Notes: generated by a model from the letters alone, not told the origin. A stretch of 64,000 nucleotides of DNA from an uncultured Gemmatimonadales bacterium (GCA_963698975.1 CAVOSV010000001.1:738514-802513), one strand, 5' to 3'. Shown: positions 1 through 64,000, counted from the first letter of the stretch. A program made the numbers and translations.

Positions 1-295
1 GTGGCGCGACCGGTTCTGGCGCAGGCGGCTCGTGAGCTGCTGCTGGCCCAGTCCTCGGACTGGCAGTTCATCATTTCCACCGGGGCCGCCGCCGATTATG
101 CCGAGCAGCGCATCCGGCAGCACTGCGCGGACGCCGAAGAGCTGATTGCGGCACTGGCTGTCGGGCAACGACTCTCAGCTGGAGAGTGCGCAGCGCCGAG
201 CGGAGGAGCTGGGACAGCGGGATCAATTGTTTCCCAATGTGATTCCGGCCATTGCCGCCGCCCTGGGCGGATCGCGTTCCCTCGTCGTCGGATAA
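1..295 (+). pseudogene. 3' end of a GH57-type glycogen branching enzyme-like gene (DUF1957-type C-terminal region); partial at window edge, one frame change
   Basis: Frame 1 reads RELLLAQSSDWQFIISTGAAADYAEQRIRQH, the SDW-F..TG block typical of GH57 branching enzymes. Between ~148 and ~190 the sensible reading moves to frame 2 (QLESAQRRAEELGQRDQLFPNVIPAIAAALGGSRSLVVG, TAA 293-295). Confidence 0.6.
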
Positions 296-297
296 TC

Positions 298-2269
298 ATG
301 CCTCCCATCCGTTTCGTTTTTGGTCTTCATCTGCATCAACCAGTTGGCAACTTCGATCATGTCTTCGAGCAACACGTGGCCGATGTGTACCGCCCGATCC
401 TGGAACGGCTGTCCGGCCGGGGATTTCTGCCGGCGGTGCTGCATCTCTCCGGACCGCTGCTGGAGTGGCTCGAAGCCAACAACACCGGATATCTCGATTT
501 CCTGGGCCGGCTGGTCAGCGATGGAAAGGTGGAGCTGCTCCTGGCCGGCTTCTACGAGCCGGTGCTCGCCTCGCTTCCCCGCCGCGACCGGGTGGAACAG
601 ATCCAGTGGATGCACGAGGCCATCCGCCGGCGGTTCGGCGTGGATGCGAGGGGCCTCTGGCTCACCGAGACGGGTGTGGGAGCCCGAGCTGGCCGCCGAT
701 CTGGCCAACGCCGGCGTTCGCTATGCTCTGGTGGACGACCGGCACTTTCTGGTCTCCGGGTTTGCCGCCGAGCAGCTCCACACGCCGTATTGGACCGAGA
801 GCGACGGCCGGAGGGTGGCTGTCTTTCCCATCGATGAGCGGCTCCGGTATCTGATTCCGTTTCGGCCTCCGGAGGAAACCGCGGACTACCTGCGCGAGCT
901 GCGCGGCGCCGGCCACCGCCTGGCGGTGCTGGCCGACGATGGCGAGAAATTCGGCGGCTGGCCCGGCACCAAGGAGTGGGTTTACGAACGGGGCTGGCTG
1001 GACCGATTCATGGACACGATGAGCGGGTTGATCGAGGGCGGAGAGGTTGAGCTCAGTACCCTGACGGCCGCGCTGGAGCACGTCCCCAGTGGCGGGATTG
1101 CATACCTCCCGAGCGCCTCATACCGGGAAATGGAGGGGTGGTCTCTCCCTCCCGATGCGGCGCTCCGGCTGATCCGGCTGGAGCGGGACCTGGGCGAAGC
1201 GCGCATATCGGGCCCTGATGGCCCCCTGATTCGCGGCGCGCATTGGCGAAACTTCCTGGTCAAGTATTCCGAGTCCAACCGGATGCACAAGAAGATGCAG
1301 GCGCTCTCGCTTCTGCTCCGCGACGCCGGCGACCCGCCGCTGGCACGCCGCGCCATCGGACGAGCCCAGTGCAACGATGCTTACTGGCATGGTGTATTCG
1401 GCGGGTTGTACCTGCCCCACCTGCGAGAAGCGATCTGGCGCAATCTCTCTCTGGCTGAACAGGAGCTGCGGAGGGGTCAGGGCTTGGAGGCCGAGGTATG
1501 GGACATCGACGGCGACGGCCACGAAGAAATCTGGGTGCATTCCGATCGGTTCTCAGCAATCGTGAGTCCCTGGCGCGGAGGAGCCCTCGAGGAGTACACC
1601 CTTTTCTCCACTGCAACCAATTATGCCAATACGCTGACCCGGCGACGGGAGGCGTATCACGATACCGCCCTGGAGCAGCGGGCTGAAACCGAAAGCCATG
1701 AAGGTGGGACACCCAGCATTCACGATATCGAAGAGGGGATTCGGCTCGACCAGCGTCCCCCGATCGACCCCGACGATCGCGCACTGTTCGTCGATCGAGT
1801 GCTCTCCAGCTCACTTGCAGCGGGAGCAGTTTGCCTCGGGAGATTACCGGCCGATCAAGTCGTGGGCTCGCTGCCGCTACATCGGCAGACGTCAGGCAGG
1901 AACCCGATGCAGTCGAGATCAGGCTGAATGGAGAAGGACCTGACGAAGCAGTTTCGGTTTTTGCCGGACGGAAGCGTTACGGTGAGCTACACCTGGGAGG
2001 GATCGGTCGGTCAGCCCAGCGACCTCTTCACCACCGAGCTCTCGCTCTTTGCTCCGCTTCCTCTCGTCACAGAGCCCGCGGCGGACATCTGGACCTTTCC
2101 CATCGAGACGGTGGCCAAGTCCGAACGGGGGCTGGACCGTACCCGTCAAGGCGAGTCGTTCACCCTCCGATGGCCGGTGGAGGTCGGTACGGCAACCATC
2201 GAGCTCCCGGCCACGCCGGCCCAGTCACTGGAACCCGCCATCGCCGCCAAGATCGCAGATCTGGGCTAA
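298..2269 (+). pseudogene. GH57 alpha-amylase / 4-alpha-glucanotransferase family protein, frame broken at least 4 times
   Basis: ATG 298 gives MPPIRFVFGLHLHQPVGNFDHVFE. The LWLTE|RVWEPELA junction is broken by an extra base near 669 (gag-a-cgg gtg tgg gag). DDGEKFGGWPGT and NDAYWHGVFGGLYLPHLR follow in frame 2. Further frame changes between ~1800 and ~1930 (frames 2>3>1>2; the 2>3 step at ~1803 is clear, the later steps less so) precede the C-terminal domain LTKQFRFLPDGSVTVSYTW, TAA 2267-2269. Confidence 0.8.
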
Positions 2270-2291
2270 CCTGATCAGCGGTGCTTCGCCA

Positions 2292-2684
2292 CTACGACGG
2301 CGGAATCAACACTCCGTCGGCGCAAGTCCTACAAATGCCATGTGTGGTATGGGCATTGTGCTGACGTTCCAGAAACTGCTCCATTGCCAGCCACTCGTCT
2401 CCAGCCCGAACCCGGCGACACCAGGCGCAGATCACCACCAGAGATTCGAGATATTCGATCCGCCGAAATGCCCGGTAGTTGATGGTGACGACCACCGCTC
2501 CCACCGCCAAGGCGAGCGCGGACTCGAGCAGGCCCTCGCCCGGCCGGAACGGTGTGGCCGGGGTACCAAACAGCAGTCGCGGCAGGTCCAGAATTTCGTC
2601 CAGCCATATGATCGCGATGATGAGGAGAAATCCTGCCGCTTCCAGTGCCAGCGTGTAGCGGAATACCGCGCCTCGGAGCGTCAC
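2292..2684 (-). CDS. Small two-TM membrane protein with a C-terminal CxxC...HGICxxC cysteine module
   Basis: GTG start. Two hydrophobic spans (LALEAAGFLLIIAIIWL; SALALAVGAVVVTINY), then VVICAWCRRVRAGDEWLAMEQFLERQHNAHTTHGICRTC. I recall this motif from the C-termini of PAS/sensor proteins. Confidence 0.6.
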   Translation of the reverse strand: MTLRGAVFRYTLALEAAGFLLIIAIIWLDEILDLPRLLFGTPATPFRPGEGLLESALALAVGAVVVTINYRAFRRIEYLESLVVICAWCRRVRAGDEWLAMEQFLERQHNAHTTHGICRTCADGVLIPPS

Positions 2685-6117: not shown

Positions 6118-6870
6118 CCGCCGGACTTCACTGCTGGACGTCCCGGATGGATCTTGGCATCACTCCGACCCTTCACGTACGAGTAGATCGCCTCGATGGT
6201 GGGCATCTCCATACCGAGCGCACACCAGGATGGCATGCCCTTGGCCGGGCGGCCGGCGCAGACTGTTTGAATGAAGAGTTCCTTGGTGTTGATGGGCCCG
6301 TCCGGCCTGAGCGACACGATGAGGTGAGGGGCGATGGTCGTTCCCTGCACATCTTCGCCGTGGCAGCGGGCGCAGTTCAGGTTGAACTGCTTCCAGCCGT
6401 CGTACACCTGCTGGGGGACGGTATCCAGGGGTGCGGTGTGATACGGATCCCGCAGAGGCGCACCGGCATCTGCTGTCTGGGAGGGCGCTGCTGAGCTCTC
6501 CGCCGGCTGCGTCGGCGTGGAGGTAGTGGTATCAGAATGCTGAGATCTGGTTTGCGCAGCGGGTTTGGGCTTGGCCGGCCGGGGAGCTGGCTTTGGCGGA
6601 GCCGGCTTGGTGGCGACCGCCTTGGCAGTATCGGCCCGGGCAGTGGTCGATTCGGGTCGGGTCATGCTCGAGGTGTCTCGCACCTGAGCGCTGGTGCCGC
6701 TCGATGTACCGGCTGCCGTGTCCGCACCGGAAGACGGGGTCGTGTCCCGCGATACCGCAGCGTGAACGCTGTTCGCCCCCGCAGCCCACGAGGCCGGCCA
6801 GCACGAGCACGCCTGTCAGCGAGGCCGTGCGTCCCCGCAGGGTCCAATGCTTCCGCCAAGCACCAATCAT
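6114..6870 (-). pseudogene. c-type cytochrome lipoprotein with a long S/T/P/A-rich linker; one +1 frame change
   Basis: ATG 6870 is preceded by GGAGAGGAGGGG. MIGAWRKHWTLRGRTASLTGVLVLAGLVGCGG (lipobox). The frame slips near the C/G run at 6772-6781 into ANSVHAAVSRDTTPSSGADTAAG...KPAPPKPAPRPAKPKP...YDGWKQFNLNCARCHGEDV. Confidence 0.75.
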
Positions 6871-10801: not shown

Positions 10802-10803
10802 GG

Positions 10804-20184: not shown

Positions 20185-20746
20185 ATGGGCAGACGTACGT
20201 TCGGTCTCTTCTTCGCCCTGAGCGCCTTTCTGGCGCTCGGGGCGAAGGAGCTTTTTGGGCAGGCTCGGATCATTTCCCTGGCAGCAACCTCTCCGGCCGA
20301 CCTCTCTCTCGTGGTCACCTCCGGCGCAATACAGACCATAGCCGGGGTAGCCGATAATGCGGTTAATAGCTTCCCGTCTCCGGTGGTCATTCAGACCACG
20401 TGGAGCGTCAGCCCGGGGCAGACCAACACGGTGAATCTGGTGGCCTATTTCCTGGTTCCGGCACAGGCGCTGGTTGGCGCCACGACGCAAATCCCCTCCA
20501 GCCGGGTGCTGGCGCGGATGTCCACCGGGCTCCCGACCGCGTTCACCCCAATTACGCAGAATGCCTTCGCCGGAGTGGGTACCGCCGGCGGGAGCTCTGC
20601 GACTCTACTCGGTGAACATCGGCGGCGGCAACAAAAACTCGACCCGTACCGACAACCTCGACCTGCAGCTGAATCTGGTAGGCTTCCCCACTCTGCCTGC
20701 CGGGTCGTATACCGGCGTGCTCAACCTCCGAGTGATTACCCAGTGA
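20185..20746 (+). pseudogene. Secreted fibre-subunit-like protein B (paralogue of A), one +1 frame change
   Basis: Signal MGRRTFGLFFALSAFLALGAKELFGQ. An extra t at ~20596 (ggg agc t ctg cga ctc) separates ...GVGTAGGS from LRLYSVNIGGGNKNSTRTDNLDLQLNLVGFPTLPAGSYTGVLNLRVITQ (TGA 20744-20746). Confidence 0.75.
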
Positions 20747-41009: not shown

Positions 41010-42300
41010 TCTTGGTGGACGGCTGCCGGGTTTTCCGCAGGCGTGCGGCGGTCGCTTCAGCCCCGCGCAAGGCGCGAAGCAGGTTCCCACCGGCGAGCTT
41101 TTTGAGATCGGCATCGCTCCAGCCCCGCCGAATGAGCTCGGCAAAGAGCTGAGGGAACTTGGATACGTCTTCCAGTCCTTCGGGCACAGTGTCGATCCCG
41201 TCGAAGTCACTGCCGATCCCCACATGGTCCACACCCGCCACCTGCCGCACATGCTCGATGTGGTCGGCCACCTGCTTGAGGGTGGCCCGGGGCTGAGGAT
41301 GCGCGCTCTTCCATTCATCGGCCAGCCGGCGCTGCTCGCTGGTATCGCTCACTGTCGCCTTCCAGCCGGTCCCATTCCCGCTGGTACTCGGTATCCCAGG
41401 CCGCCGCTTCCGGAGAGACGAACGCAGGAACGAAGGTGACCATCACGACCCCACCGTTCTTGGGCAGTCGAGCCAGAATGGAGTCCGGTACGTTACGCGG
41501 ATGCTCGGTGAGCGCTCGGGCCGCCGAGTGGGAGAAGATGACTGGGGCCTCACTCACGTTCAGCGCATCGCTCATGACTGAAGGCGCGACATGCGAGAGA
41601 TCTACCAGCATGCCGAGACGGTTCATCTCCCGTACCACTTCCTTGCCGAACTCCGTGAGCCCGTCGTGCCGGGCGGTATCCAGGGCCGCATCGGCCCAAT
41701 CCAGCGTGACATTGTGGGTGAGCGTCATGTAGCGCGCCCCCAGCTCGTAGTACGATCGCAGCGCACCCAGGGAGTTCTCGATGGCGTGGCCGCCTTCCAT
41801 GCCCAGCAGGGAGGCAAGGCGGCCCCGTTTGAAGTCGCGCTCGATATCGTCGGCCGTGAGGGCCAGCGCCAGCCGATCGGGATAACGGGCGATCATCCGT
41901 CGGGCGATGTCGAACTGCTCCAGCTGCACCCGCGCGTAGCCGCTGTCCTTGATCTCACCCGGGGATGTAGATCGACCAGAACTGCGCCGCGACCTTTCCC
42001 TCCTTGAGCCGCGGCAGGTCGGTCTGCTTCGGCGCCGGACGGCCGAATGTCGTAGGCCGCCACATCGCGGGGAGCATCTTTCGATTCCCGGATTTCCCAG
42101 GGCAGGTCGTTGTGGCCATCGATCAATGGGGCCGAACCGAGAAGCTTCCGGGCATGCTCGAGGGCAGGATCTGAGGACTGGGCGGCCACGGAGGAAGCCA
42201 TGGTTAAAAGGAAAACGTGAGCGGGAGCTGCCGACAGCGTGAGGGGAAAAGCGTGAGCGGGAACTGCCGAACAGCGTGAGCGGTGAGCGGGAGTGCGCAT
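40972..42300 (-). pseudogene. Membrane dipeptidase (peptidase M19); three +1 frame changes
   Basis: PLIDGHNDLPWEIR, then TDLPRLKEGKVAAQFWSIYIPG, MEGGHAIENSLGALRSYYELGARYMTLTHN, VDLSHVAPS, PVIFSHSAAR, HVGIGSDFDG read in successive frames. Breaks near 42027-42031, 41958-41964 and 41353. Start is ATG 42300 or 42201; the first 33 codons are encoded by the GTGAGCGG repeat array. Confidence 0.8.
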
Positions 42301-45437: not shown

Positions 45438-45504
45438 TGCCGGGAAAGCTAACCAGCCTCAGTCGTAGCCGGAGAAGGGCTCGGTCTCGAAGCGAGTGCC
45501 TTTG

Positions 45505-45757
45505 CTACGAGTCTTCGAAGACGTGGGTGATTCGGACGGTCGACGGGAGCCGCTCGACCCGGCTCTCGATCAGCTTCAGATTCGGGATTGTCGCCCAGGC
45601 CAAGGGCATTCAGCCGTTCCGCCTCGGCTCGGGCTACATCACCTGGTGTGGGGCGGCTGGCTGGATACGCATCCTCGTGGTGACGGATCAGGGCCTGCCA
45701 ATACTGGTCACCCGCGCGTTCGATCGACTCTCGGATCTGTTCCCGGGTGAATGCCAT
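45505..45757 (-). pseudogene. Small hypothetical protein, one +1 frame change
   Basis: MAFTREQIRESIERAGDQYWQALIRHHEDAYPASRPTPGDVARAEAERLNALGLGDN, then from ~45590 the protein-like reading is IPNLKLIESRVERLPSTVRITHVFEDS (TAG 45505-45507). The uninterrupted frame gives P/R/A-rich junk. It may instead be the C-terminal part of the upstream membrane protein. Confidence 0.4.
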
Positions 45758-45996: not shown

Positions 45997-46011
45997 TCAC
46001 GTCACCGGGCC

Positions 46012-47194
46012 TCAGTGACCGCCAGCAGCCGAGCGGCGGCTGCGAAAGCGTTCCTGGTTCAGCAGAAAGCCGGCCGAACTGGTTGGCACCTGCATCCGGC
46101 CCTGGGAATCCATCGTGAGCGGGATGACATCCGCGTCGGGCCCGAACCACCGCGTGCTGGGCTCCACATCCGAGGGGTAGACGAAGCCCGGCAAGGCCGC
46201 GGCCGCAATAGCGGCCTGGGATCCTATGCCGGATTCGGGCATGGTACCGGCCCACAGCTTGGCGCCGTAGGAGATGGCGAGGGGGTAAATCCGGCAGACC
46301 TCGGTAAGCCCACCCACCCGATGCACCTTGATGTTCCAGACCCGGGGTCCATCCAGCTCAATGATCTGTCGAGCGGCCCGGGCGTCGTGCAGCGTCTCGT
46401 CCACGCATACCGGGGTGCGCAGCTCGTGAGAGAGGCGGGCGTGGCCCACGAGCTCGTCAGGCGGGAGAGGCTGCTCGATGTAAAGCAGATCATTCTGGTC
46501 GAGAGCCCTGCAGGGCGTCTCTCTGCTCGGGCCACTGGTAGGCTCCGTTGGCATCCACCGTCAGGGGCAAACCGGAACCGGCCATGGTTTCCGCTGCAGC
46601 TTTGATCGGGGCAGCATCCCATCCTGGCGCGATCTTGATCTTGACCCGCCGGTATCCTCGAGGGATTGCCTGCTCGATCCACCGCCGGAGGGTTTGGAGC
46701 GATCGGTCCGCCGGAATGCCCAGGGCCACACCGCAGTCGATGGCCGGAGAGCACTCGACGCCGAGCCTGTCAGCGAGAACCTGAGCCAGTCCGGTACCCC
46801 GCCGAGCTGCTTCGAGGTCCCATAGCGCAGTGTCCACTGCGGCGCGGGCAAACCGGTTCCCTCGAATACCATCGTGCAAGACAAAGTCGGCCGCCTGGGA
46901 TGAGCCGGGCTGCGCCTGCAACAGGCGGGGAATCAACACCTGCTCCAGCAGATGGCGGGCGCCCGCCAGCGTTTCCTCGGAGTAAAAGGGCAGCTCGAAG
47001 GGAGGCGACTCGCCCAAACCACGGTTGCCCCGGTCGTCGTACACAATCACGACGAGAGACCGCCGGTGGGTCATGGTGCCGCCAGATATGATGAACGGCT
47101 CCAGCAGCGGCAGAGTCAGCTCATAGAGCTCGACGCGCTCGAGTCGGAAGCCGGTGGAGCTGGCAGCTGCGGAGCTGGTGCTCAGCGAGCTCAT
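46012..47194 (-). pseudogene. Enolase-superfamily enzyme (o-succinylbenzoate synthase / N-acylamino-acid racemase-like); one +1 frame change
   Basis: ATG 47194 gives MSSLSTSS...FRLERVELYELTLPLLEPFIISGG...RRVKIKIAPGWD...LTVDANGAYQW. An extra c near 46515, then LDQNDLLYIEQPLPPDEL...VCVDETL...WNIKVHRVGGLTE...GTMPESGIG. Confidence 0.8.
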
Positions 47195-48339
47195 ACCCGG
47201 CGTGAGGTTCTGCAGATCGAGGAACTTGAGCTCTCCGTCCCGCCGCTCGAGCTGGCCTTCTGCCTCGAGATCGAGCATCCCAGCTACCAGTCCCTCTTTA
47301 GGGTCAAAGATCAGAGCATGCAGGGCACGCTGGGGACGAGACCCGCCGGTGGCAGGGTACTCCGAGAGCGGGAGCTGGAAACAGGTATGCAGCTGGACAC
47401 TTTCGCAGCCGGCCCGGGCGTAGTCGAGGAGAATCCGGCCGCTACACACGTTGCCGCTGCCTACCAGGGGCGGCAACGAGAGGTCGCTCCGGGAAGCCAG
47501 CTCGAGCACCCGGATATTGCGCTCGCTCAGATCGTAGCCGCCATACGCTACGCCTTGCGCCGCGTCCCAGAGCCGGTTGAATACCACCAGCGCGTCGGCC
47601 GAACTGGAGGCGCGCAGCATTTCCAGCTGGAAGCTGTCGTCGAAACGGGCGTTCATCAGCTTCAGCGCGAGGCGGACGGGTCGGCCAGTGCCTCGACGAA
47701 TCTGATCGGGAACCTCTCGTAGCCACCGCAAGTATCTGGTTGCGCTCATCGGCCAGGGCATCTCCCGCCAGCGTGGGAGAGAAATCCTTCTCCAGCGACA
47801 GAGTCTCGTTGCCCCACGCTGCCGCTATGCGCTCGGTGGTATGGCGGTACTCGGCGGACCGAAACGGCTCGTTCAGCCGGGGCAGGTGATACTTGACTGA
47901 GGGCACCGCGACGATCTCTCCCGAGCGGGTGAGATCGCCGGCCGAGCGAACCAGGGAGAGATAGTCTTCGAAGGAGCGGTCCCAGCCTCGGCCCTTTCCA
48001 GGTGACTGTCCACCCCTCTCGTCCGGTTTGAGACTGGCGCCGCTCCACTTTCATCCGCGTTTCGTGGATCGCCCACGCTGCCATGGCGCGCTCCCCAGCC
48101 GGATCCTCCGCGATCACCGTCTTCAGAACGACGAAGGCGAGGCCCGCTGTCCGATCGGTCTCCAGCTGCTCGAGATTGAGCGAGAGTTGACCTGAACCCT
48201 TGCCGATCGGGTGCGGAAGCGGGTGACCCAGGTACCGGGCGCTGAGATCTATCCGGTAGGTATCCCGGACGTAGTTCGGGAAGTCGCGCGGTAGCTCGCG
48301 CTTGAACCGCTCGAAATCACGCTCGAGTCGCTCGCGCAT
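47195..48339 (-). pseudogene. Dihydroorotate-dehydrogenase-like TIM-barrel protein; two +1 frame changes and no in-frame stop
   Basis: IDLSARYLGHPLPHPIGKGSGQLSLNLEQL...FVVLKTVIAEDP. Breaks near 47992 and 47735. VPSVKYHLPRLNEPF...VRLALKLMNARFDD...PPLVGSGNVCSGRILLDYARAGCESVQLHT. It runs in frame into the next gene. An ATGA at 47191-47194 would give a stop in the +1 frame. Confidence 0.65.
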
Positions 48340-49212
48340 CGCGGACTATGCGCTCGACTGCCGCGCGTTCACCGGCTGGAAGTGGAGGTCCCCACGGATC
48401 GTCGCAGGCCTCTGGAGGGAGAGCACCCTCGGCTGCGGCCGCCCAGAGCATACGGCGGATGTAACCCTCCATGGGATCGATGAAGGTAGTCTGGCTGAAT
48501 CGGTCGCACTGCTCGGATAAGGCGACAAAGCGAGGCCAATCTTCGGCCATCCGAGCGCGAAGCAGATCGGCCTGGAGGTCCGGCAGAGCAGAACCCATTC
48601 CGATCAATGCTGCGCGGGCGCCCAGCAGAAGCGAATAGCCCAGAAAACGATCTTCGCCGGTGATGAGCAGCTTGTCGGGATGCTCCCGCAGAGCCGACCG
48701 CGATTCGCTGGAAGGTGATCACAGAATCGAGCGTAGCCACCTTGATCCCAACCACGTTGGGCAGGTCGAGAATCGCGTGCAAGGTGCGGTCGTCGTAGTC
48801 CACCCCGCCGGCAGCCTGATACAAATAGAACGCGATGACCGGCAGCTCCCGGCCGAGCCGCTGGTGATGTCCAACGGGATCATTGGACTGGGGGAAGGCC
48901 AGCAGAGCGTCGGCCTTTCCCCGGCGAGCTTCGATGGCCATGGTAATGTCGCGGGCACCGGCAACCAGCACGCGATCCGGCAGCGCCTCGCGCCAGGTAT
49001 CGAGCACCAGCCTGCGCTGCTCCGAGCTGAGGTGAGGGCCTCGTCCGGTGTGAGCCCAGACCGCCACCCCGCCCACCGGCTGCCCTGCCATCCAGCCGGC
49101 ATACGAGCGCTGCGCAGCCGAATCGAGATCTCCGCCGCGAAACGGGAACCGGTACCGCCGGGATCAGTGCGCCATCGAGACGCTGGATCAATGAGCTGAT
49201 GTCTGCGGTCAC
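48317..49212 (-). pseudogene. DapA/N-acetylneuraminate-lyase-family (class I aldolase-like) protein; two +1 frame changes
   Basis: GTG 49212 overlaps the upstream TGA. IPAVPVPF|RGGDLDSAAQRSYAGWMAGQPVGGVAVWAHTGRG...VVGIKVATLD...|LREHPDKLLITGEDRFLGYSLLLGARAALIGMGSALP. Breaks near 49133 and 48696. Confidence 0.65.
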
Positions 49213-50017
49213 GCCTTCACCCGGCGAGTCTTGCTCTTGAGCGAGCTCCGGCAAAGCGCCAACGCGTTCTCCGCCTCTATGGCCGAGCGGTGCTCGGAAC
49301 TGAGGTTAAGAAGGTCCAGCTTGGCGACGCTGTTCTCCGGCAGCCGAAGCGGCTGACCGGTCCCAAAGACAAAGCGGTCCACTCCAACCGTGCCCAGCAG
49401 GGTCTCCAGGTGATCCTCCGGCGGACCCCATATCCAGCAGATGTCCCACCAGATTCGGGCGGACTCCTCAGGGGTGGACCCGAAGTGCACCTCCTCCACG
49501 AAGCTCCGGTCAGCGTGGGTGATGAGCAGACCGCAGGGCGGGATCGGCGCGCAGCAGTGTTCTGACTGCCGCTGCCGTCAGCTCCGGGAGCGCGGTCGTT
49601 AGGGTGGCGCTGCCGAGCGTCTTCGAGACGCACTGCCATGATCAGCGCCATGTTCTCACCGGCACAGGCCTGCACCAGTGATCGCATGTCGGGTCCGGTC
49701 GGTTCGAGCCCGTAGTAGTTCGGATCACATCTCACCGCCGGCGCGCCGCGAGATCGAGCCTCCCGGATGCCTTGCTCCCAACCCTTGAGCCCGGGATGAA
49801 TCGCGGGAACCGGACGCAGTTGCTCGCTGCTGTCAGTGATCTGGTATAGCCACGGGTTTCCCTCTGCCGGGTCTCGCCAGAACACACTGGGCAGGTGGCT
49901 GATCCACGCCTGATCCACGCCAATCCGGTCCATGGATTGGAGCACCGCCTCTACCGAGGTCCCGGGCACTCGCCGGAAGGGATAGGCCCCCACGAAGCTA
50001 TTGACGTCGAGGCGCAT
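49209..50017 (-). pseudogene. Amidohydrolase-2-type TIM-barrel metal hydrolase; two +1 frame changes
   Basis: MRLDVNSFVGAYPFRR...WISHLPSVFWRDP...MAVRLEDARQRHPNDRAP|ELTAAAVRTLLRADPALR|LLITHADRSFVEEVHFG...DRFVFGTGQPL. Breaks near 49587 and 49530. Confidence 0.7.
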
Positions 50018-51036: not shown

Positions 51037-52296
51037 TTAGGCAGGTTTGGCCACGGTCGAGAGGGCCTCGGCCAGTACGGCGAGCGAGCGATCGACCGTG
51101 GCTCGATCGTGAGCCAGGGAGACGAAGTTGTAGGCCGAACGCTTGAACAGCAGGCCCGCGTGGGCGCAGGCTGCCGTTACCGAACGGGATACGGTGTCGT
51201 CCGCGTAATGGAGAAAGCACATCTCCGGAATACCGCCGATGCCAGTCACAAGGTCGGGATGGTCGCGCTGCAACCGATGCAAGCCCTCCAGCAGCCCGCC
51301 GCCGACTTGCTGAAGATGAGCCGGTACCCGCCTGGACACCATGACCTGGAGAGTGGCAAGGGCAGCTGCCAGGGAGACGAACTCGGTGGCCAAGGTGGAG
51401 GAGATCCAGGTGCGCATGGCACCCGCCATTACCTCCCGGCGGCCGCCCACTGCCGCCAACGGAAAGCCGTTGGCCAGAGCCTTGCCCATAACAGTGAGAT
51501 CGGCCCGGATACCATAGCGTTCGCCGGCGCCTCCAACTGCGAGCCGGCAGATGGTCTTGATCTCATCCACGATGAGAACGGCCCCTGACCGAGTGGTCTC
51601 TTCCCGCAGTACCTCGAGCCAGGCGGCTTCGGGCTCGGCGACAATCACCGGCTCGAACACCACGGCGGCGAGCCGGTCTCCCGCTGAACGGATCAGCTCC
51701 CTCGCGCGATCGGCATCGTTGAAGGGGAGCTCAGAGTACAAGGCGCGGGTGGCTGAAGGAACGCCGGCAGCACCCTGAGACCAGTCGAGCCAGCCGTGAT
51801 AGCCGCAGCCCAGCACGTGGTCCCGGCCGGTGAACACTCGAGCCAGGCGAACCGCCGCAGCCATGGCCTCTGCACCGGTTTTCAGAAACCGAACCTGCTC
51901 GATCCAGGGGATCAGGCGGCAGATTTCGCCGGCAACCTCCTCTTCCAGCACGGGAGCAAGCGGACCGACCACACCGTTGCTCGCCGCGAGAGTGACCGCC
52001 CGCGTCACCTCGGGGTGGGCATAGCCCAGGGCCACCGACCCCAGGCCCATGATGTAGTCGATGTATTCGCGGCCCTGCTCGTCCCACACACGATAGCCGG
52101 ACGAGCGAGTCATCCGGCTGGGCAGATCGGGTTCAGGGGAACCGAAGAACGTGTCGGGACGCTTGCTGCCGGTAGAGGTAAATCCCGGGATGTGTTCCGT
52201 CACGGTACCTCGCGCGCTGAAGTCAGCCGAGCTCGAGCGTTCCAAGCCGCGCAGGATCTTGCCGGTCGCCTCGGAGCCAAACCCATCCTCCCCCAC
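51037..52296 (-). CDS. Class III (PLP) aminotransferase, glutamate-1-semialdehyde aminomutase-like
   Basis: GYRVWDEQGREYIDYIMGLGSVALGYAHPEV, FLKTGAEAMAAAVRLAR, LIVDEIKTICRLAVGGAGERYGIRADLTVMGKALANGFPLAA (PLP Lys). Confidence 0.85.
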   Translation of the reverse strand: MGEDGFGSEATGKILRGLERSSSADFSARGTVTEHIPGFTSTGSKRPDTFFGSPEPDLPSRMTRSSGYRVWDEQGREYIDYIMGLGSVALGYAHPEVTRAVTLAASNGVVGPLAPVLEEEVAGEICRLIPWIEQVRFLKTGAEAMAAAVRLARVFTGRDHVLGCGYHGWLDWSQGAAGVPSATRALYSELPFNDADRARELIRSAGDRLAAVVFEPVIVAEPEAAWLEVLREETTRSGAVLIVDEIKTICRLAVGGAGERYGIRADLTVMGKALANGFPLAAVGGRREVMAGAMRTWISSTLATEFVSLAAALATLQVMVSRRVPAHLQQVGGGLLEGLHRLQRDHPDLVTGIGGIPEMCFLHYADDTVSRSVTAACAHAGLLFKRSAYNFVSLAHDRATVDRSLAVLAEALSTVAKPA

Positions 52297-54957
52297 CGCT
52301 CCAGACCAGCTGGCCGGCTCGGCGAAGCCGATCGGGGAGCATCTGATTGATCAGGAGGTCGAAACCGATCTCCTCCCCCGGCCGGAATTCACCCCAACCC
52401 GGCGGAGCCATGGTGACAGTGAGAAGGTACCCCGCTTCTGTGGCAGACCAGCCCCCGGTGACCTGATCGGGCGCGCCCGCAGTTCCTTCCACTCCCCGAA
52501 CGATAAGCTCTCCGGTTTTGGAGGGAACGATCAGGACCCCGGAGCCAACCTCCTCCTCGGGAAGCCTGACGTACAGCTGAATTCCGTCGGCGTGAATCTC
52601 GTCCGGCTCGTTGTCCAGCCGGAGCGGCGCCGCCGCGGGATCGCGGAGGACGAGCTCCGGTTTGGTCACTTCTACCGCCACATGCAAACCGGCATCCCTC
52701 CAGTTCACGTACGCGCGGGCAGAAAATTCGTCGGGGCCTCCATATGGCTCTTCACTGCGACGGTACTGGTCTTCGTGATCGAGCTCGAGCGGCTCGCTGG
52801 TGTCGAACCCATCCAGGCTCCCGTCCAGTGCAGGTGCTTCGGCGACTTGAGGCGCGACTCCACGGGCGACCAGAGGACGATTCTGCATCAGCGGCTGGAA
52901 GGGAGCCGCCGCCTTCCGGCTCCCTCGAAGCCGGATCGTCTCCCGTTCGGACCGAACCTCCCAGCCTTCGACCGTCGAGACATGCCGTTCGACGCCCGAT
53001 CCGGATTGCACCTCGACTCCGCTCTCGGTAACCCGCAGCTCCGTTACCGCCGGGGTGGTCCCCGGCTCGAGCAGTGTCGCGATGCGAAGTTTTCGGCCGG
53101 TGGAGCGCAGCAGATAAAACGGCATTGTTTCACCCGTGCCCGGTATGCCCGGTCCTGTGGCCCGAATCAGATCACCCGGAAGGTCGATCACTGCGCTGAT
53201 TCTGGCGCCCGCTTTGCCGGAGGAGCTGAGACGGAACGGCCCCGGCGAATCGGGGACGAAACGTTGTGCGTCGGCGACGAATTCGTCGCTCAGCTCGGCT
53301 GGGCATCCAGTGGCCCGGTACGGTCACCTCGCTATGTCCGCTCAGGTGCAGAGGAAGCTCGAGCAGCTGATCGGAGGCCGAGGAGAGATCGAGGATGTCC
53401 AGCAGGTAATTGGGTCCGGAGACCAGAGTCCGGGTGAGATCACCGAACCTGCCCCGGGCCCAGCCCCACTCTCCCTGCTGGTCGAAGTTGTCGCACAGCG
53501 CATCACCCGGCCGCTGCGACACGCCGTCCAGACGGGGAGCGTTGTGGGCCAGCGTCGAACGGTACCAGAAGAGGTCCCGTGCGACGTACGAGCCGGTGCC
53601 AAGGTCCGGTAGCCAGTACTCCCCATCGGCGTGGAGCACGAGATTCAGGCGGTCGGGGTGTCCGTGTCCTCCACCATGGGCCCCGCATTCCAGACTGGCG
53701 TAGCGGTTGCCGTGGCGCAGAATGGCGAGCCCCTGTCCCTCGAAAAACACGCTTCCCGGGGACCAGGCCCCAGTGCCCTCAGGAAGACTGGGCAGCATCT
53801 CCAGCAGAGACCACCAGGAGAGATCGGCACGAGTCCGGGGCGCGGTAGGCGGAGCTTCGCCGGCCTCGTGCAGATAGGAGTCGAAAGTCTGAGCCGGGGG
53901 CGCGGGTGTCTCGGTACAGAAGACGGAGCCAGTCCCATAATTCCGGTTGCGGAATGCCGGCTCGCTCCAGGCGCGCCAAACCAACTTCCCAAAGCTCGAG
54001 GTACATCGGCTGCGCCAGAGACACTCCGAACCGCGAGTCCTTGCGCGCGGGGAAGGTACCATCGGGCAGGGCGGTCAGAGCCGGTGCCCGCAGTGCGGCA
54101 CTCATTCGTTCGGCGAGCTGTGAGTCAGCCAGCAGGTCGACGCCGGCCTGGCGAGCCCAACCCATGGCTACCAACTGGCCCCGCAGGGCAAACAGGTGGT
54201 AGTTATCGCCCTCGAACCACATCCCGTCGGGCCCAAATCCCTGGAGCAGATGGGTCAGGATGCCGCTAGGTCCCTCGAGCATCCGGGTGGCCAGTTCCTC
54301 GTCCTCGAACCACACAGCAACCGCGGCAAGCGCGGCGTTGTGCCAGGTTTGCCGGTTCGACAGACCCTCATCGAACTCGCCAATCAGATTGGCGGCCTCA
54401 TCCGCAACGGCGGCCACGACCTCCGCCGTTTCCGCCTGCAGCAGCCCTCCATCGCGAAGCAGCGTGGCGGCCGCCAGGTAGTTCGTCAGCCAGATAGACT
54501 CGAGATAGGTGGAGAAGAAGAGTCTGCTGGGCCCCAGCACGTTGTCGCGGTTGGGATACGCAGGGTAGTTCTGATATGCTTGGAGGACGCTATTGGCCCG
54601 GGTAGCGGCGTCTTCACGACCGCCCAGAGACGCCAGCGTGGCCAGATGAGCGGCTCGCTCCGCCACCCACAGATGTTGATAATGGGCCCAGGCCCTGTCG
54701 TGCCGCTCGCCAGTGAAACGGCGCCCACATCGGGGACAACGGTGCTCGGTGGGACTCCAGGGATCGAACTCGAGCCGGCCACCGTGTTCGGGACAGACTC
54801 CGCCATCCGCGGTCAACAAGGCCTTTGCATGATGAACCAGCGGCGTGCGCTGTAACACTGGTGCCGCTCGCTGTGCCAGCCGCTCCAGCAGTGCAGCCAA
54901 TTCTGGAGACCCAACGATCTCCTGCTGCCGCGTTTCCAGCTCCTCTGCCGTTAACAC
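52223..54957 (-). pseudogene. Heparinase II/III-like protein with a CBM9-like C-terminal module; two +1 frame changes
   Basis: N-terminal alpha/alpha region with CPEHGGRLEFDPWSPTEHRCPRCGRRF. Break near 53913-53916. HGGGHGHPDRLNLVLHADGEYWLPDLGTGSY...WYRSTLAHNAP. Break near 53299-53303. C-terminal DNEPDEIHADGIQLYV...GFDLLINQM. Confidence 0.75.
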
Positions 54958-57412: not shown

Positions 57413-58391
57413 ATGGTGAGAGCACTCTTGCGCCGCGCCTTCACCGGCCTCGCCGTGGTTCTGGGCGTGGTCACTCTCATGTTTTTTCTCATCCGGCTCG
57501 CGCCCGGCGACCCCGCCCTCCTCCTCGTTGGACCCACGGCTTCAGAGGAACAATTGGCTGCTCAGCGGAAAAGCCTCGGGCTGGACCGGCCCCTGCCGCA
57601 GCAGTACGTCAGCTGGCTGGCTCGATTTACCCGGGGGGACTGGGGCACCAGCATTGCAACCGGCCGCCCCGTAAGTGCGATGATCTCCGAAGCGTGGCCT
57701 GCCACCGTTCGTCTGGTAGGGCTCTCGCTGCTCTTGAGCTATGTCCTGGGGCTCGGCGTTGGTGCGATCCAGGCCGCCAGCGGCGGCCGCGTGGACACCT
57801 CGTTGTCGGTGGTTACCGTGACGCTATTTGCTCTGCCCGGCTATTGGCTGGGCCTCATGCTGGTGATGGTTTTCACCTACTGGGCCAGGGCTCTGCCTGC
57901 GTTCGGCGCAGCAGGCTTCGACGCCGACTTTCTGACCGGCTGGAGCCGGATGGCAGATCGGCTCCGCCACCTGGCCTTGCCCCTGACCACCCTGACGCTC
58001 ATCGGTGTCGGTGGCGTCGCGCGGTACGTGAGAGGGGCAATGCTCGATGTGCGCAACGCGCCCCACGTCGCGGTGGCACGGGCCAAGGGACTTTCACCCG
58101 CGGAGGTGAATCTTCGGCACGTGCTGCGGCAACGCCCTCATCCCGGTGGTAACCCTGTTGGGTCTTTCGTTGCCTGCCCTCTTTTCGGGCGCGGTGTTCA
58201 TCGAGTCCATCTTTGCCTGGCCGGGTGTCGGCCGCATCATGGTCGAAGCGGTAGGAGCGCGGGACTACCCGGTTATCATGGCGGCGACCGCCGTGAGCGC
58301 AGCCCTGGTGGTAGCGGGCAACCTGGTGGCCGAGCTCCTGACCGCATGGGTTGATCCGAGGGTACGTACCGCACCCGCGGGCGCCCAGTGA
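57413..58391 (+). pseudogene. ABC transporter permease (DppB/OppB-like); one +1 frame change
   Basis: LGVVTLMFFLIRLAPGDP...VARAKGLSPAEVNLRHVLR. An extra c at ~58130, then NALIPVVTLLGLSLPALFSGAVFIESIFAWPGVGR (TGA 58389-58391). Confidence 0.85.
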
Positions 58392-59249
58392 TGTTCCCGT
58401 CGCACTCCCTGCTCCAGGACCGGCGGGCGCAGTTCGGGCTGGCGGTGATCCTGTTGGCCATTGCGGTGGCATTGGCGGCTCCACTCCTGGCCGGCGATCC
58501 GGTGGTGCAACGGGACATCGTCGCCACCCGCTTCCTGCCACCACTTCAGTACCGATGTGCACGGCGCTTTTCACGCCCTGGGCACCGACCGCTTCGGACG
58601 CGACGTATGGGCTCGTCTGGCCTATGGCGCCCGGATCTCCCTCGGAGTCGGGGTGCTCGCTGTGCTGCTCTCGGTGACAATCGGGGTCCTGATCGGAGCT
58701 GCTTCAGGCTTCTGGCCTGGCGCGATAGGCACCCTGCTGCTGGGGCTGACCGACTTCGCATTGGCGCTTCCACGAGTGGTGCTCCTGCTGCTGCTCGCCT
58801 CGCTGTGGCAGCCGAGTGCCGCTCTGGTGGTCGCTGTGCTGGGCTTGACCGGTTGGATGACGGTGGCGCGCCTGGTGCATGGAGAGGTTCGGGCTCTTTC
58901 CGCGCGCCCTTTCGTGGAGAGTGCTGTTGCCCTTGGGGTCAGAGGCCCGCGAGTACTGGTGCGACACATCCTGCCCAACGCCATGACTCCGGTGATCGTC
59001 ACTGCGGCGCTCGGTGTCGGCAACGCCATCATGCTGGAGGCCGGGCTCTCGTTTCTGGGACTGGGAGTACAGCCTCCGACCCCGTCCTGGGGCAACCTGA
59101 TCGCCTCGGGCCGAGATACCCTGGTCAATGCCCCGTGGGTAGCGACTGCGCCCGGAGTAGCGCTGGTACTGGTGGTGGTTGCGGCAACGCTACTGGGAGA
59201 TGCGCTGCGGGATCGGATGGATCCGGCTCAGCGCCGGGAAGTGAACTGA
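58388..59249 (+). pseudogene. ABC transporter permease (DppC/OppC-like); one +1 frame change
   Basis: GTGATG at 58388 overlaps the upstream stop. The break near 58547 separates ...VATRFLPPL from STDVHGAFHALGTDRFGRDVWARLAYGARISL...FVESAVALGVRGPRVLVRHILPNA. Confidence 0.85.
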
Positions 59250-62328: not shown

Positions 62329-62766
62329 CTACGCGGCGCTGGAACCTCCGCCACGGCTGCGCACACAGCGGTGGACCTCGGCCAGGAGTCGCTCGGCTGG
62401 AAACGGCTTGGGGAGAATGCTGCAGGGCGTGGCTATGCCGAGCTCGGAGAGCGCCGCGGTGGCGTAGCCGGACATGAGCACCACCGGCACATGGGGGTGG
62501 GACTCGGCTACGGACTGCATCAGCTCCACCCCATTCACGCGGGGCATCACAATATCAGAGACGATCAGGTCGACAACTACCTGTCCTGCCCGGAGCATTT
62601 CGAGTGCTTCGTGCCCATCAGCGGCTTCGAGGACCTCGTAACCGTCTCGCTGCAGTACCCGCACAGCAAACCGACGTACCGCGGTCTCGTCGTCCACCAC
62701 CAGCACGCTTAAACCAGAGCCGGCGCGGGTCGGCGAGGAGTGGGAGAACTCGTCGAGGGTCTGCAT
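62329..62766 (-). CDS. Stand-alone response-regulator receiver (CheY-like)
   Basis: ATG 62766. SVLVVDDETAVRRF...DLIVSDIVMPRVNG...VVLMSGY...LPKPF. No output domain. The 300-aa ORF-track version adds a P/R-rich extension. Confidence 0.8.
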   Translation of the reverse strand: MQTLDEFSHSSPTRAGSGLSVLVVDDETAVRRFAVRVLQRDGYEVLEAADGHEALEMLRAGQVVVDLIVSDIVMPRVNGVELMQSVAESHPHVPVVLMSGYATAALSELGIATPCSILPKPFPAERLLAEVHRCVRSRGGGSSAA

Positions 62767-62864
62767 ATCTGATCTTGTTGAGGGACGGGACCAATGTAAT
62801 GTGGGCGGAGATTCGTCACCACCCCATGATCCCGGAGCAGTTTGGTCTGGCCGGGGCTCCTGGT

Positions 62865-63617
62865 CTATTCCGGGCGCCGCCCGACGCGCAGGGTCAGGGG
62901 CCAGCGGACCAGGCGGGAATCGCGGGTATCGCCCCACAGGCGCCGCAGCTCGCTTCCCAGCTCGGGTATCGGGTCGGATCCCGTTGCCTCCCGACAAAGC
63001 TGGGTGGCGGACCAGGTTCCGATGTAGCCCAGCAGCTCGTCCAGAGTCCAGTGCCGCTGCATCTGAAACTCCGGGTGATCGAGCTCGGGATAAGGAAAGC
63101 TGAGGGTGGTGTACCCGGCTTCCACGTGACACCGCTCGGGAGGCCAGTACGGACCCACCACTTCGTGGTAGAACCGGGTTAGGACGGAGTCTACGGCCCG
63201 GTCTTCGAGCACCTGGTTGCCATAGGTCCAAACTCCGAGTATCCCGGCTGGTTTGAGAACCCGGCTCACCTCGGCGTAGAAACGTTCCGGCTCCAACCAG
63301 TGCAACGCCTGAGCGACGGTCACCAGATCCGCGCTCGCGGGCTCGAGCCCACTTTCATAGGCGCTGCCCTGACGGTACTCCACAGATGGGTGTACGGGCG
63401 CCTGGGCCAGCATGGCACTGCTGATATCGGTTGCAACCACCCGTCGGAAATGCCGGGCGAGCGGGACGCTGGCCTGCCCACTTCCCGCGGCGCAGTCCCA
63501 CGCCAAATCATGTCCGCTGGCTGCGCCGGCCAGGAAGGCGAACAACTCATCCGGGTAAGCCGGCCGCCGCAGCGCATAGGCATCTGCAACCACCGAGAAG
63601 TGGTCGGAGGCTTTCAA
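62865..63617 (-). CDS. Class I SAM-dependent methyltransferase
   Basis: Proposed TTG 63617 (MKASDHFSVVADAYALRRPAYP). LAWDCAAGSGQASVPLARHFRRVVATDIS (motif I), DLVTVAQALHW, VLKPAGILGVWTY. No ATG/GTG is available. In frame with the upstream gene. Confidence 0.7.
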   Translation of the reverse strand: MKASDHFSVVADAYALRRPAYPDELFAFLAGAASGHDLAWDCAAGSGQASVPLARHFRRVVATDISSAMLAQAPVHPSVEYRQGSAYESGLEPASADLVTVAQALHWLEPERFYAEVSRVLKPAGILGVWTYGNQVLEDRAVDSVLTRFYHEVVGPYWPPERCHVEAGYTTLSFPYPELDHPEFQMQRHWTLDELLGYIGTWSATQLCREATGSDPIPELGSELRRLWGDTRDSRLVRWPLTLRVGRRPE

Positions 63618-64000
63618 GGCGAAGCTGAAGCTACCGGGTAGAGCCCCACGAGCGCGGAGCAGCCGCATGACTTCCGGCACCGGCAGGGCTTCAACCGTTC
63701 CTCGGTTCGATGACACGGTCGTTGCCATAAAGAGAGAGTTGTAGATCGCCTCTTCGGTGGCCTCGGCTGCGGCCTGGAACAACCCCGACATAGCGTCGTT
63801 GCCCAACTCGGGCGTGCTCCGCCGGAGCTCACCCATTCGGCGCCGGACCTCCGGGCTGGTCGAGAAGGCGATCACGTAATCACCTGATCCGTTGTCCATG
63901 GAGGAGCCGGTTCGGCCTACCCCGATGAGGGCCCGAGTACCGAGCCGGCGAAGATTCCGGTCCGAGAGCGGCGCGTCGGTGGCCACCACGATCATGATCG
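63618..64000 (-). CDS. 3' part of a DmpA/S58-family aminopeptidase-like gene (continues beyond the window)
   Basis: IVVATDAPLSDRNLRRLGTRALIGVGRTGSSMDNGSGDYVIAFST...AIYNSLFMATTV...VEALPVPEVMRLL. There is no in-frame stop before the methyltransferase. A +1-frame TGA at 63614-63616 overlaps the TTG. Confidence 0.6.

What the first reader, a model, noticed from the sequence alone, without database searches (positions are those of the whole stretch)
1..64000. More than 30 reading-frame breaks, almost all +1 (one extra base)
Conserved proteins can only be reconstructed by changing frame at about 669, 1803, 6776, 20596, 38644, 40800, 41353, 41960, 42029, 46515, 47735, 47992, 48696, 49133, 49530, 49587, 53301, 53915, 58130 and 58547, plus at least 10 sites in the GH38 gene. 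At every junction I could resolve at nucleotide level, the downstream frame starts one base later. This is equivalent to a single inserted nucleotide, for example gag-a-cgg at 669, agc-t-ctg at 20596 and gga-a-tcg at 38644. The two apparent -1 transitions (about 43330 and about 43010-43060) can also be read as two closely spaced +1 events. The sites are not restricted to homopolymers. Natural pseudogenisation would give a mix of insertions and deletions plus nonsense changes. A one-directional bias points instead to insertion-type consensus error, as in an unpolished long-read assembly, or to some other systematic process.
Basis: seen in the sequence. Interest (0 to 1): 0.65.

Follow-up and report, generated by a model that had tools for sequence, protein, structure and literature searches.

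The report
Strain-SNP insertion errors in long-read MAG
The 30-plus "+1 frameshifts" are really in the sequence, but they are almost certainly consensus errors of a long-read-only (probably Nanopore) metagenome assembly: single extra bases, most of them sitting beside strain SNPs and repeating the alternative allele. The genes are not broken in the organism.

Summary
Observation confirmed. The window is part of a 3-contig Gemmatimonadales soil MAG. It carries about 36 frame-breaking insertions in coding DNA. Within genes defined by an intact relative there are 31 single extra bases against 1 doubtful missing base (p~1.5e-8). Non-coding DNA shows an ordinary 21:20 mix.

The interpretation as an insertion-type long-read consensus error is supported and sharpened:
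- Contigs of independent metagenome runs, at least one of them Illumina and some near-identical, lack the extra base at every site checked.
- Two other long-read MAGs of the same genus (MFD catalogue: Flye plus one Medaka round) carry 57 and 55 private insertions at other positions in the same stretch. Two fragmented short-read-type MAGs carry 4 and 0.
- Read in the orthologue's frame, the broken genes show dN/dS of 0.03-0.24 and no true nonsense codon.
- Insertion sites flank polymorphic columns in 77-88% of cases (33% expected). The inserted base equals the alternative allele in 81-90% of those (43% expected).
- There is no homopolymer link and no sequence motif.

Most likely two co-assembled strains were collapsed and both alleles of a SNP were written in tandem. 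Genome-wide there are roughly several hundred such errors, clustered in blocks. This is not a biological feature. Its value is as a quality warning for databases.

The parts
346..2271 (+). GH57 alpha-amylase/4-alpha-glucanotransferase gene, broken by single extra bases at 669, 1814, 1882 and 1939 and by a 5-b insertion at 2246. An extra T at 161 probably lies in its N-terminal part.
   Evidence: Alignment to G011. Pfam PF03065, PF09094 and PF09095 on the intact G011 orthologue. dN/dS 0.10.
6756..6763 (.). Net +1 insertion (4 b against G011; a private T at 6763 in the multi-way alignment). The gene context was not resolved.
20200..20743 (+). 181-aa gene with an extra T at 20596.
   Evidence: The frame tracker places a +1 junction at 20596.
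37228..39151 (-). Big_1/PKD surface-protein gene, broken by one extra base at 38636-38640. The long-read MAG G032 has the same extra base; G031 and the metagenome-run contigs lack it.
   Evidence: 'left out 1' at full depth in X1, X2 and X7, with SNPs at 38638 and 38640 in those runs. Pfam.
40298..40970 (+). Unnamed plus-strand gene with an extra C at 40796.
   Evidence: 'Left out 1' at 40796 in X2 and X7.
40975..42165 (-). M19 membrane dipeptidase gene with extra bases at 41365, 41961 and 42043.
   Evidence: dN/dS 0.043. Pfam PF01244. 'Left out 1' at 41365 in four runs and at 42043 in three.
42766..45437 (-). GH38 alpha-mannosidase gene with 10 frame-breaking insertions: 43010, 43043, 43308-9 (GG), 43686, 43792, 43821, 44111, 44494, 44547 and 44635. 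It also has an in-frame CCG at 44657. The extra bases at 44547 and 44635 are shared with the long-read MAG G031.
   Evidence: dN/dS 0.096 and no in-frame stop in 886 codons; window-G031 dN/dS 0.125. Pfam PF01074, PF09261, PF07748 and PF17677. Contigs lack the base at 43686, 43792, 43823 and 44547.
45462..45757 (-). 98-aa gene with extra bases at 45510 (shared with G032) and 45583 (shared with G031).
   Evidence: 'Left out 1' at both sites in X1, X2 and X7.
46011..47155 (-). Enolase-superfamily (MR/MLE) gene with extra bases at 46045 and 46509. An extra base at 45959 lies just outside the gene.
   Evidence: dN/dS 0.07. Pfam PF13378 and PF02746; a 249-b X2 contig with 3 mismatches lacks the T at 46509.
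47194..48339 (-). Gene of about 380 aa with no Pfam match, with extra bases at 47733 and 47992 and another at 47201 near its 3' end. The only 'in-frame stop' (about 48348) lies upstream of the probable ATG at 48339.
48650..50017 (-). Two adjacent genes (203 and 268 aa) with extra bases at 48697 and 49144, and at 49529 and 49584.
   Evidence: 'Left out 1' at all four sites in X1 and X2.
52226..54717 (-). Two genes (462 and 361 aa) with extra bases at 53300 and 53912.
57437..59244 (+). Two ABC-transporter permease genes with extra bases at 58130 and 58545.
   Evidence: Pfam PF00528 on the first of the two.

Best explanation
The extra bases are consensus artefacts of a long-read-only metagenome assembly. 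They are not features of the organism's DNA.

The genome is a 3-contig, 3.93-Mb Gemmatimonadales MAG. It behaves exactly like two sister MAGs of the Microflora Danica long-read catalogue, which were made with Nanopore R10.4.1 reads, metaFlye and one round of Medaka, without short-read polishing.

Proposed mechanism:
1. Where reads of two closely related co-occurring strains were collapsed into one contig, a site at which the strains differ by a substitution was written with both alleles in tandem. This adds one base.
2. Every such event lengthens the sequence by one, so all breaks are +1.
3. SNPs occur anywhere, so homopolymers play no part.
4. Strain co-assembly varies along the genome, so the errors come in blocks.
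5. A minority of sites, about a quarter, show no allele match and may be ordinary low-coverage insertion noise.

Shown here: the extra bases are private to each long-read assembly, they are absent from independent metagenome contigs (at least one run is Illumina), and they are statistically tied to polymorphic sites and to the alternative allele.

Inferred: that the window's own assembly came from that pipeline, that a second strain was present in the sample, and which program (Flye's polisher or Medaka) writes the doubled allele.
For: 1. Independent data lack the base.
- Contigs of runs X1, X2, X5 and X7 show 'left out 1' at the window's sites, mostly at full depth. A Nextera adaptor in a loose end of X1 shows that run is Illumina.
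- 11 of the 12 indels listed are 'left out 1', all 12, and both single-base indels at the target site (38638/38640), where a 3-b and a minor 1-b 'put in' were also listed elsewhere.
- Some of these contigs are near-identical to the window: 3 mismatches in 249 b at 46509.

2. The pattern is specific to long-read assemblies. Private single-base insertions over the window-wide alignments:
- window 35
- G031 (MFD09018.bin.2.1) 57
- G032 (MFD05176.bin.2.210) 55
- G011 (440 contigs) 4
- G035 (MEGAHIT k141 contigs) 0
The positions differ between genomes. In 20-40 kb the window has 2, while G031 and G032 have 22 each.

3. The insertions are tied to SNPs.
- A flanking column is polymorphic at 27/35 (window), 50/57 (G031) and 30/55 (G032) sites, against a null of 0.33.
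- Given a polymorphic flank, the inserted base equals the alternative allele at 22/27, 45/50 and 19/30 sites, against a conditional null of 0.43 (p = 4.7e-5, 5e-12 and 0.016).
- In the best-sampled block the match is 17/17 (p = 1e-14).

4. The genes look functional once read in the orthologue's frame.
- dN/dS is 0.03-0.24 whether or not a gene is broken.
- Window-G031 dN/dS for GH38 is 0.125.
- There is no genuine nonsense codon in 13,838 codons.

5. The bias is confined to coding DNA in the way expected. Coding DNA has 31 extra against 1 missing; non-coding DNA has 21 against 20.

6. There is no motif or positional base bias at the 33 sites.

7. Genome-wide, a reference-free frame tracker gives a +1/-1 junction ratio of 0.65. 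The isolate-like control G019 gives 0.28 and another MFD MAG, G004, gives 0.45. The excess lies in blocks of 50-300 kb.

8. The pipeline of the MFD MAGs is Flye plus one round of Medaka 1.8.0. Its authors screened for errors only through coding density (PMC12313526).
Against: - The original reads could not be inspected. No indexed run holds more than 0.25 of the window's sampled words and no Nanopore run is served. Absence of read support for the extra bases is therefore inferred and was not seen directly.
- The window's own record name is withheld, so its platform and pipeline are inferred from contiguity and from the shared error signature.
- If the doubled sites were typical synonymous strain SNPs, the insertion slots should touch third codon positions more often than chance. 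They do not: 14 of 21 unambiguous sites do so, exactly the 2/3 null.
- About a fifth to a third of sites show no allele match, and in G032 the match is weaker (19/30).
- Five sites are shared between independent long-read MAGs (44547, 44635 and 45583 with G031; 45510 and 38636 with G032). A shared polymorphism explains this, but so could an unidentified context-specific error.
- I found no published description of this error mode in the papers I read.
Confidence: 0.9

Rival explanations
1. The insertions are plain low-coverage long-read noise. Random insertion errors of individual reads survive consensus because the MAG, or parts of it, has low depth. Strain polymorphism plays no part.
For: Nanopore-only bins below about 40x are reported to keep indel errors (PMC9262707). 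The sites are not in homopolymers and have no motif. About a quarter of sites have no allele match. The codon-position test is at the null.
Against: Random noise does not predict that 77-88% of sites flank polymorphic columns (33% expected). It does not predict that the inserted base equals the alternative allele in 81-90% of those (43% expected). It does not predict identical extra bases at the same site in independent assemblies. It also predicts deletions as well, and only 1 doubtful coding deletion was seen.
Confidence: 0.07
2. The insertions are systematic, context-specific basecalling or polishing errors, for example at methylated motifs. They would recur wherever the same sequence context occurs.
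For: Five extra bases are shared between independently assembled long-read MAGs: 44547, 44635 and 45583 with G031; 45510 and 38636 with G032.
Against: There is no positional base bias from -8 to +8 and no enriched 4- or 5-mer at the 33 sites. Most insertions are private even though the surrounding sequence is conserved in the sister long-read MAGs. The allele-match signal is not predicted by this model.
Confidence: 0.02
3. The insertions are genuine, insertion-biased gene decay or a biological recoding system (programmed +1 frameshifting or transcript editing) in this lineage.
For: The extra bases are in the deposited sequence. A few are shared by two related assemblies.
Against: Independent contigs of near-identical strains lack them. 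Fragmented short-read-type MAGs of the genus are intact, while each long-read MAG has its own set. dN/dS is 0.03-0.24 and there are no nonsense codons. The sites have no shared sequence context, which recoding would need. Ten breaks in one 886-codon gene would leave almost no product even if each site were bypassed efficiently (inference).
Confidence: 0.01

Closest known systems
Residual indel errors in Nanopore-only metagenome-assembled genomes (Flye plus Medaka; PMC9262707, PMC12313526)
   Same: Single-base length errors in long-read-only MAGs fragment gene calls. They are absent from short-read assemblies of relatives. The sister MAGs with the same signature come from the pipeline described in PMC12313526.
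   Different: The published descriptions stress homopolymers and overall coverage, and count insertions and deletions together. Here the errors are almost only insertions, are not homopolymer-linked (19 of 31 have no identical neighbour), cluster in blocks, and are tied to polymorphic sites and their alternative alleles.
Collapsed-strain consensus in strain-oblivious long-read assemblers (Strainberry paper, PMC8302730)
   Same: Flye merges strains of about 98.6% identity into one consensus contig. SNV-dense contigs mark collapsed haplotypes, and indels then cause frameshifts and missing marker genes.
   Different: As far as I read it, that work does not report that substitutions between the strains are turned into tandem both-allele insertions, and it does not report an insertion-only bias.
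Genuine mass pseudogenisation in decaying genomes, for example Mycobacterium leprae or recent endosymbionts (own knowledge)
   Same: Many genes are interrupted by frameshifts while still recognisable.
   Different: Real decay gives a mix of insertions, deletions and nonsense codons, relaxed dN/dS, and defects shared by close relatives. None of these was found here.
Programmed +1 ribosomal frameshifting, for example prfB or Euplotes (own knowledge)
   Same: The downstream frame is +1.
   Different: Programmed sites have a conserved sequence context and are conserved in orthologues. Here there is no common context and the orthologues are uninterrupted.

Membership tests
Long-read consensus insertion artefact | The extra base is absent from independent sequence data of the same or near-identical strains. 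| tested here: met
   'Left out 1' at the window's sites in runs X1, X2, X5 and X7, mostly at full depth. This includes contigs with about 1% mismatch. X1 carries a Nextera adaptor, so it is Illumina.
Long-read consensus insertion artefact | Other assemblies of the same technology or pipeline show the same kind of error at different positions, and short-read assemblies do not. | tested here: met
   Private 1-b insertions: window 35, G031 57, G032 55, G011 4, G035 0. G004, another MFD MAG, also has a raised +1 class.
Long-read consensus insertion artefact | Read in the orthologue's frame, the genes behave as functional genes. | tested here: met
   dN/dS 0.03-0.24 and no genuine nonsense codon in 13,838 codons.
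Long-read consensus insertion artefact | The original reads do not carry the extra base as a majority state. | not testable with these tools
   No run holding the strain is served: best word share 0.25, and no Nanopore run is listed.
Strain-SNP 'both alleles in tandem' sub-type (proposed here) | Insertion sites lie next to polymorphic positions, and the inserted base equals the alternative allele. | tested here: met
   Polymorphic flank in 77-88% of sites in the window and G031 (55% in G032), against 33%. Allele match in 81-90% of those in the window and G031, against 43%. G032 gives 63%, p = 0.016.
Strain-SNP 'both alleles in tandem' sub-type (proposed here) | The sites concentrate at third codon positions, as synonymous strain SNPs do. 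| tested here: not met
   14 of 21 unambiguous slots touch position 3, which equals the 2/3 null. Post hoc, sites with an allele match do so in 12 of 14 cases.
Natural pseudogenes / gene decay | A mixture of insertions, deletions and nonsense mutations. | tested here: not met
   31 single insertions against 1 doubtful deletion in coding DNA. The only in-frame stop lies upstream of the start codon.
Natural pseudogenes / gene decay | Relaxed selection (dN/dS approaching 1) in the broken genes. | tested here: not met
   Broken genes have dN/dS 0.04-0.16, the same as unbroken neighbours.
Programmed +1 frameshifting / recoding | A conserved site and sequence context, shared by orthologues. | tested here: not met
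   No motif or base bias at the 33 sites. The G011 orthologues have single open frames, and G035 has no private insertions in the aligned stretches.

The most novel reading that the evidence does not exclude
The extra bases are real in the cells' DNA. In that case this Gemmatimonadales lineage, and its relatives sampled by long reads, would tolerate hundreds of +1 interruptions through some unknown correction at the transcript or ribosome level, or would have an insertion-only mutational process acting at polymorphic or recombining sites. Short-read assemblies would then be missing the bases because they sample other strains.
Probability: 0.01. Interest if true: 0.9.

Novelty: not a real feature. 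Interest (0 to 1): 0.2.

Why it matters
Biologically it does not matter: the genes are almost certainly intact in the organism.

Practically it matters for anyone who uses such genomes.
- This MAG stands as a species representative in public taxonomies.
- By my rough estimate it carries several hundred spurious frameshifts.
- Two sister MAGs from a catalogue of about 15,600 species-level MAGs show the same density of errors in the same stretch.
- Such errors create false pseudogenes, truncated proteins and split domains. They also generate false leads about recoding.

The signature found here could guide error detection that does not need the reads, and strain-aware polishing. That signature is: insertion-only, not in homopolymers, next to SNPs, and repeating the alternative allele. 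The coding-density check reported for the catalogue (PMC12313526) would not flag this genome, because the frame tracker still% of it coding.

Tried and rejected
- Finding the reads of origin. Three run searches, one of them restricted to Nanopore libraries, gave at best 0.25 of the sampled words, meaning related strains only.
- First version of the frame tracker. It called no shifts because leaving and re-entering coding was cheaper than a direct shift. This was fixed. The tracker still finds only 12 of 32 true sites in the window and also reports natural gene junctions, so I used it only against control genomes.
- Codon-position test of the SNP model. It was not significant: 14/21 against a null of 2/3.
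- Motif search around the sites, looking for methylation or recoding signals. Nothing was found.
- Homopolymer explanation. Rejected.
- Old shared pseudogene as the explanation for the extra bases shared with G031. Rejected, because window-G031 dN/dS in GH38 is 0.125 with no stops.
- The single in-frame stop (about 48348). It turned out to lie upstream of the probable start codon.
- Literature search for a prior description of SNP-linked insertions in Flye/Medaka consensus. None was found in the papers I read. This is not proof that none exists.

Full report
**What the window is.**
The window is C1:738514-802513 of a 3.93-Mb assembly in 3 contigs with 63.6% G+C. Estimated completeness is 95% and contamination 3.6%. 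A TonB-dependent receptor encoded in the window finds its relatives only among soil and rhizosphere Gemmatimonadales MAGs. Many of them are named "MFDxxxxx.bin" and have contigs of 0.1-3 Mb. These belong to the Microflora Danica long-read catalogue. That catalogue was made from Nanopore reads assembled with Flye, polished with one round of Medaka 1.8.0, and not polished with short reads (PMC12313526). The window's own record name is withheld. That it is a MAG of this kind is an inference from its contiguity and from the error signature described below.

**Check of the observation.**
I aligned the window to orthologous DNA of the closest species representative, G011 (88-91% identity, 440 contigs).
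- Over 8.1 kb (40546-48662) the window has 24 single extra bases and lacks 3.
- Over all alignable parts of the window it has 52 extra and 21 missing.
- The two apparent -1 transitions are two +1 events 33 b apart (43010, 43043) and a 2-b insertion (43308).
- Inside genes defined by the intact G011 orthologues there are 31 single extra bases against 1 missing base, which lies near a gene's 5' end (p = 1.5e-8).
- Outside those genes the counts are 21 and 20, as expected for ordinary indel variation.
- 19 of the 31 extra bases have no identical neighbour. 39% match a neighbour against 46.5% expected by chance. No run exceeds 4 bases.

**Are the genes decaying?**
I read the window in the frame of the G011 orthologues.
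- The broken genes have dN/dS of 0.04-0.16, the same as the unbroken neighbours (0.03-0.24).
- GH38, with ten breaks, has dN/dS 0.096 and no stop in 886 codons.
- The single in-frame stop among 13,838 codons lies 9 nt upstream of the probable ATG of its gene.
- Some extra bases are shared with the long-read MAG G031. Window-G031 dN/dS is nevertheless 0.03-0.16 in these genes (0.125 in GH38). That excludes old shared frameshifts in genes that have since drifted.
- The affected genes are ordinary: a GH57 amylase/glucanotransferase, an M19 dipeptidase, a GH38 mannosidase, an enolase-superfamily enzyme, ABC permeases and a Big/PKD surface protein.

**Independent sequence data.**
No public run holds this strain. 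The best share of sampled words is 0.25, and no Nanopore run is listed. Several soil and rhizosphere metagenomes do hold related and partly near-identical strains.
- I laid their contigs on three stretches of the window.
- Of the listed indels, 11 of 12 and 12 of 12 are "left out 1", and so are both entries at the target site. One search also listed a 3-b and a minor 1-b "put in" elsewhere in the stretch.
- The "left out 1" entries coincide with the window's extra-base sites, mostly at full depth and in up to four runs.
- A 249-b contig with only 3 mismatches lacks the T at 46509.
- A loose end in run X1 reads as a Nextera adaptor, so at least that run is an Illumina library.

**The signature is specific to long-read assemblies.**
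I made multi-genome alignments of the window with two long-read MAGs and two fragmented MAGs. The long-read MAGs are G031 (MFD09018.bin.2.1, 92-93% identity) and G032 (MFD05176.bin.2.210, 86-90%). The fragmented MAGs are G011 and G035, the latter with MEGAHIT k141 contig names.

| Genome | Type | Private 1-b insertions |
|---|---|---|
| Window | long-read (inferred) | 35 |
| G031 | long-read | 57 |
| G032 | long-read | 55 |
| G011 | fragmented, short-read type | 4 |
| G035 | short-read (MEGAHIT) | 0 |

Each long-read MAG has its own private insertions at different positions. Dense and clean blocks differ between genomes. In 20-40 kb the window has 2, while G031 and G032 have 22 each. A biological trait of the lineage would not track the sequencing technology in this way.

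**A more specific cause.**
In the alignments the extra base nearly always equals a base that some relative carries at the adjacent column. For example, at 44111 the window reads C-G-A, where G035 and G032 have G and G011 and G031 have A. I tested this against a null of random bases inserted at random aligned positions.
- In the best-sampled block, 17 of 17 window sites meet the criterion, against 15% expected (p = 1e-14).
- Insertions might simply prefer variable DNA, so I split the test into two parts.
- Part one: a flanking column is polymorphic at 27/35, 50/57 and 30/55 sites (window, G031, G032), against 33% expected.
- Part two: given a polymorphic flank, the inserted base equals the alternative allele at 22/27, 45/50 and 19/30 sites, against 43% expected (p = 4.7e-5, 5e-12 and 0.016).
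- The four private insertions of G011 show neither property.
- At 38636-40, the metagenome runs that lack the extra base also show SNPs at exactly 38638 and 38640.

My reading is that reads from two co-occurring strains were collapsed into one contig, and that at some substitution sites the consensus kept both alleles side by side. Strain collapse by Flye is documented (PMC8302730). This reading explains several things:
- the pure +1 direction;
- the indifference to homopolymers;
- the absence of any motif;
- the block-wise distribution;
- the occasional identical extra base in independent long-read MAGs, at 44547, 44635, 45583, 45510 and 38636, as a consequence of shared polymorphisms.

**Limits of that reading.**
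- The expected enrichment of third codon positions was not seen: 14 of 21 unambiguous slots, exactly the 2/3 null.
- Post hoc, sites with an allele match touch position 3 in 12 of 14 cases. The non-matching sites mostly do not. This suggests a minority class of ordinary insertion noise, but the split was made after seeing the data.
- I cannot tell whether Flye's polisher or Medaka writes the doubled allele.
- I did not find this error mode described in the papers I read. Those papers attribute residual Nanopore errors to homopolymers and to coverage below about 40x.

**Genome-wide picture.**
I wrote a reference-free frame tracker. It is a seven-state Viterbi path over codon-usage scores, and it classifies same-strand frame junctions.
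- Natural gene junctions such as ATGA overlaps fall in the "-1" class.
- The +1/-1 ratio is 0.28 in 400 kb of an isolate-like genome of the same order (G019). It is 0.45 in another MFD MAG (G004). It is 0.65 in this genome, from 496 and 759 junctions.
- The excess sits in blocks. Some 50-kb bins have 10-23 +1 junctions, against a baseline of 2-6. These include C1 750-900 kb, where the window lies, C1 0-300 kb and C3 0-400 kb.
- The tracker finds 12 of 32 verified sites in the window. The excess of roughly 220-280 junctions therefore suggests several hundred insertions in the genome. This is a rough figure.
- Earlier notes of this scan on the same genome agree: a dnaX extra base was judged an assembly error, and a "frameshift hotspot" was noted about 600 kb upstream, in one of the tracker's dense bins.

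**Verdict.**
- Confidence that the extra bases are not in the organism's DNA is about 0.9. This is limited mainly by the lack of the original reads.
- Confidence that collapsed strain polymorphism causes most of them is about 0.75.
- There is no biological novelty.
- The practical point is that long-read-only MAGs used as species representatives can carry hundreds of SNP-linked insertion errors that coding-density checks do not reveal.

Noticed in passing
window 42166-42440: The intergenic region between the M19 dipeptidase and GH38 genes holds short tandem repeats of a GTGAGCGG-type unit on the left and their complement (CCGCTCAC) on the right. They flank an AT-richer core of about 90 nt. Repeat copy number differs from G011: 35 b extra at 42207 and 20 b missing at 42390. 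A ~45-nt piece (42247-42293) recurs at 81-93% identity in many genomes of the genus and elsewhere in this genome, for example at C3:424501.
   Followed up: partly
window 9433-13957: A 4.5-kb block is absent from G011, where the flanks are almost contiguous on one contig (C7:1050 to 1141). The block encodes a 991-aa TonB-dependent receptor with a CarboxypepD_reg N-domain, and a 452-aa partner with no Pfam match. This is a presence/absence polymorphism of a SusC-like uptake pair.
   Followed up: partly
G031 (L080, L124, L128, L133-134) and G032 (L079, L125, L130, L135-136), aligned to the whole window: Both Microflora Danica long-read MAGs carry 55-57 private single-base insertions in the stretch orthologous to this window, with the same SNP-allele signature. 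G004 (MFD01275.bin.1.56) also shows a raised +1 junction class. The error mode therefore seems to be general to the catalogue and is not peculiar to this genome.
   Followed up: partly
genome G000, 50-kb bins (C1 0-300 kb and 750-900 kb; C2 100-200 kb; C3 0-400 kb): The frame-break density is strongly regional. Dense blocks of 50-400 kb alternate with long stretches at the natural baseline. Several dense blocks lie towards contig ends. Whether they mark regions where a second strain was co-assembled, or regions of lower depth, could not be tested without reads.
   Followed up: partly
window 15220-17259 (minus strand): The listed urocanase ORF of 679 aa starts about 125 codons upstream of the Pfam Urocanase_N domain. 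The G011 comparison covers only 535 codons, and there is a single-base length difference at 16920, just upstream. The long ORF is probably an over-extension in this high-GC sequence.
   Followed up: no
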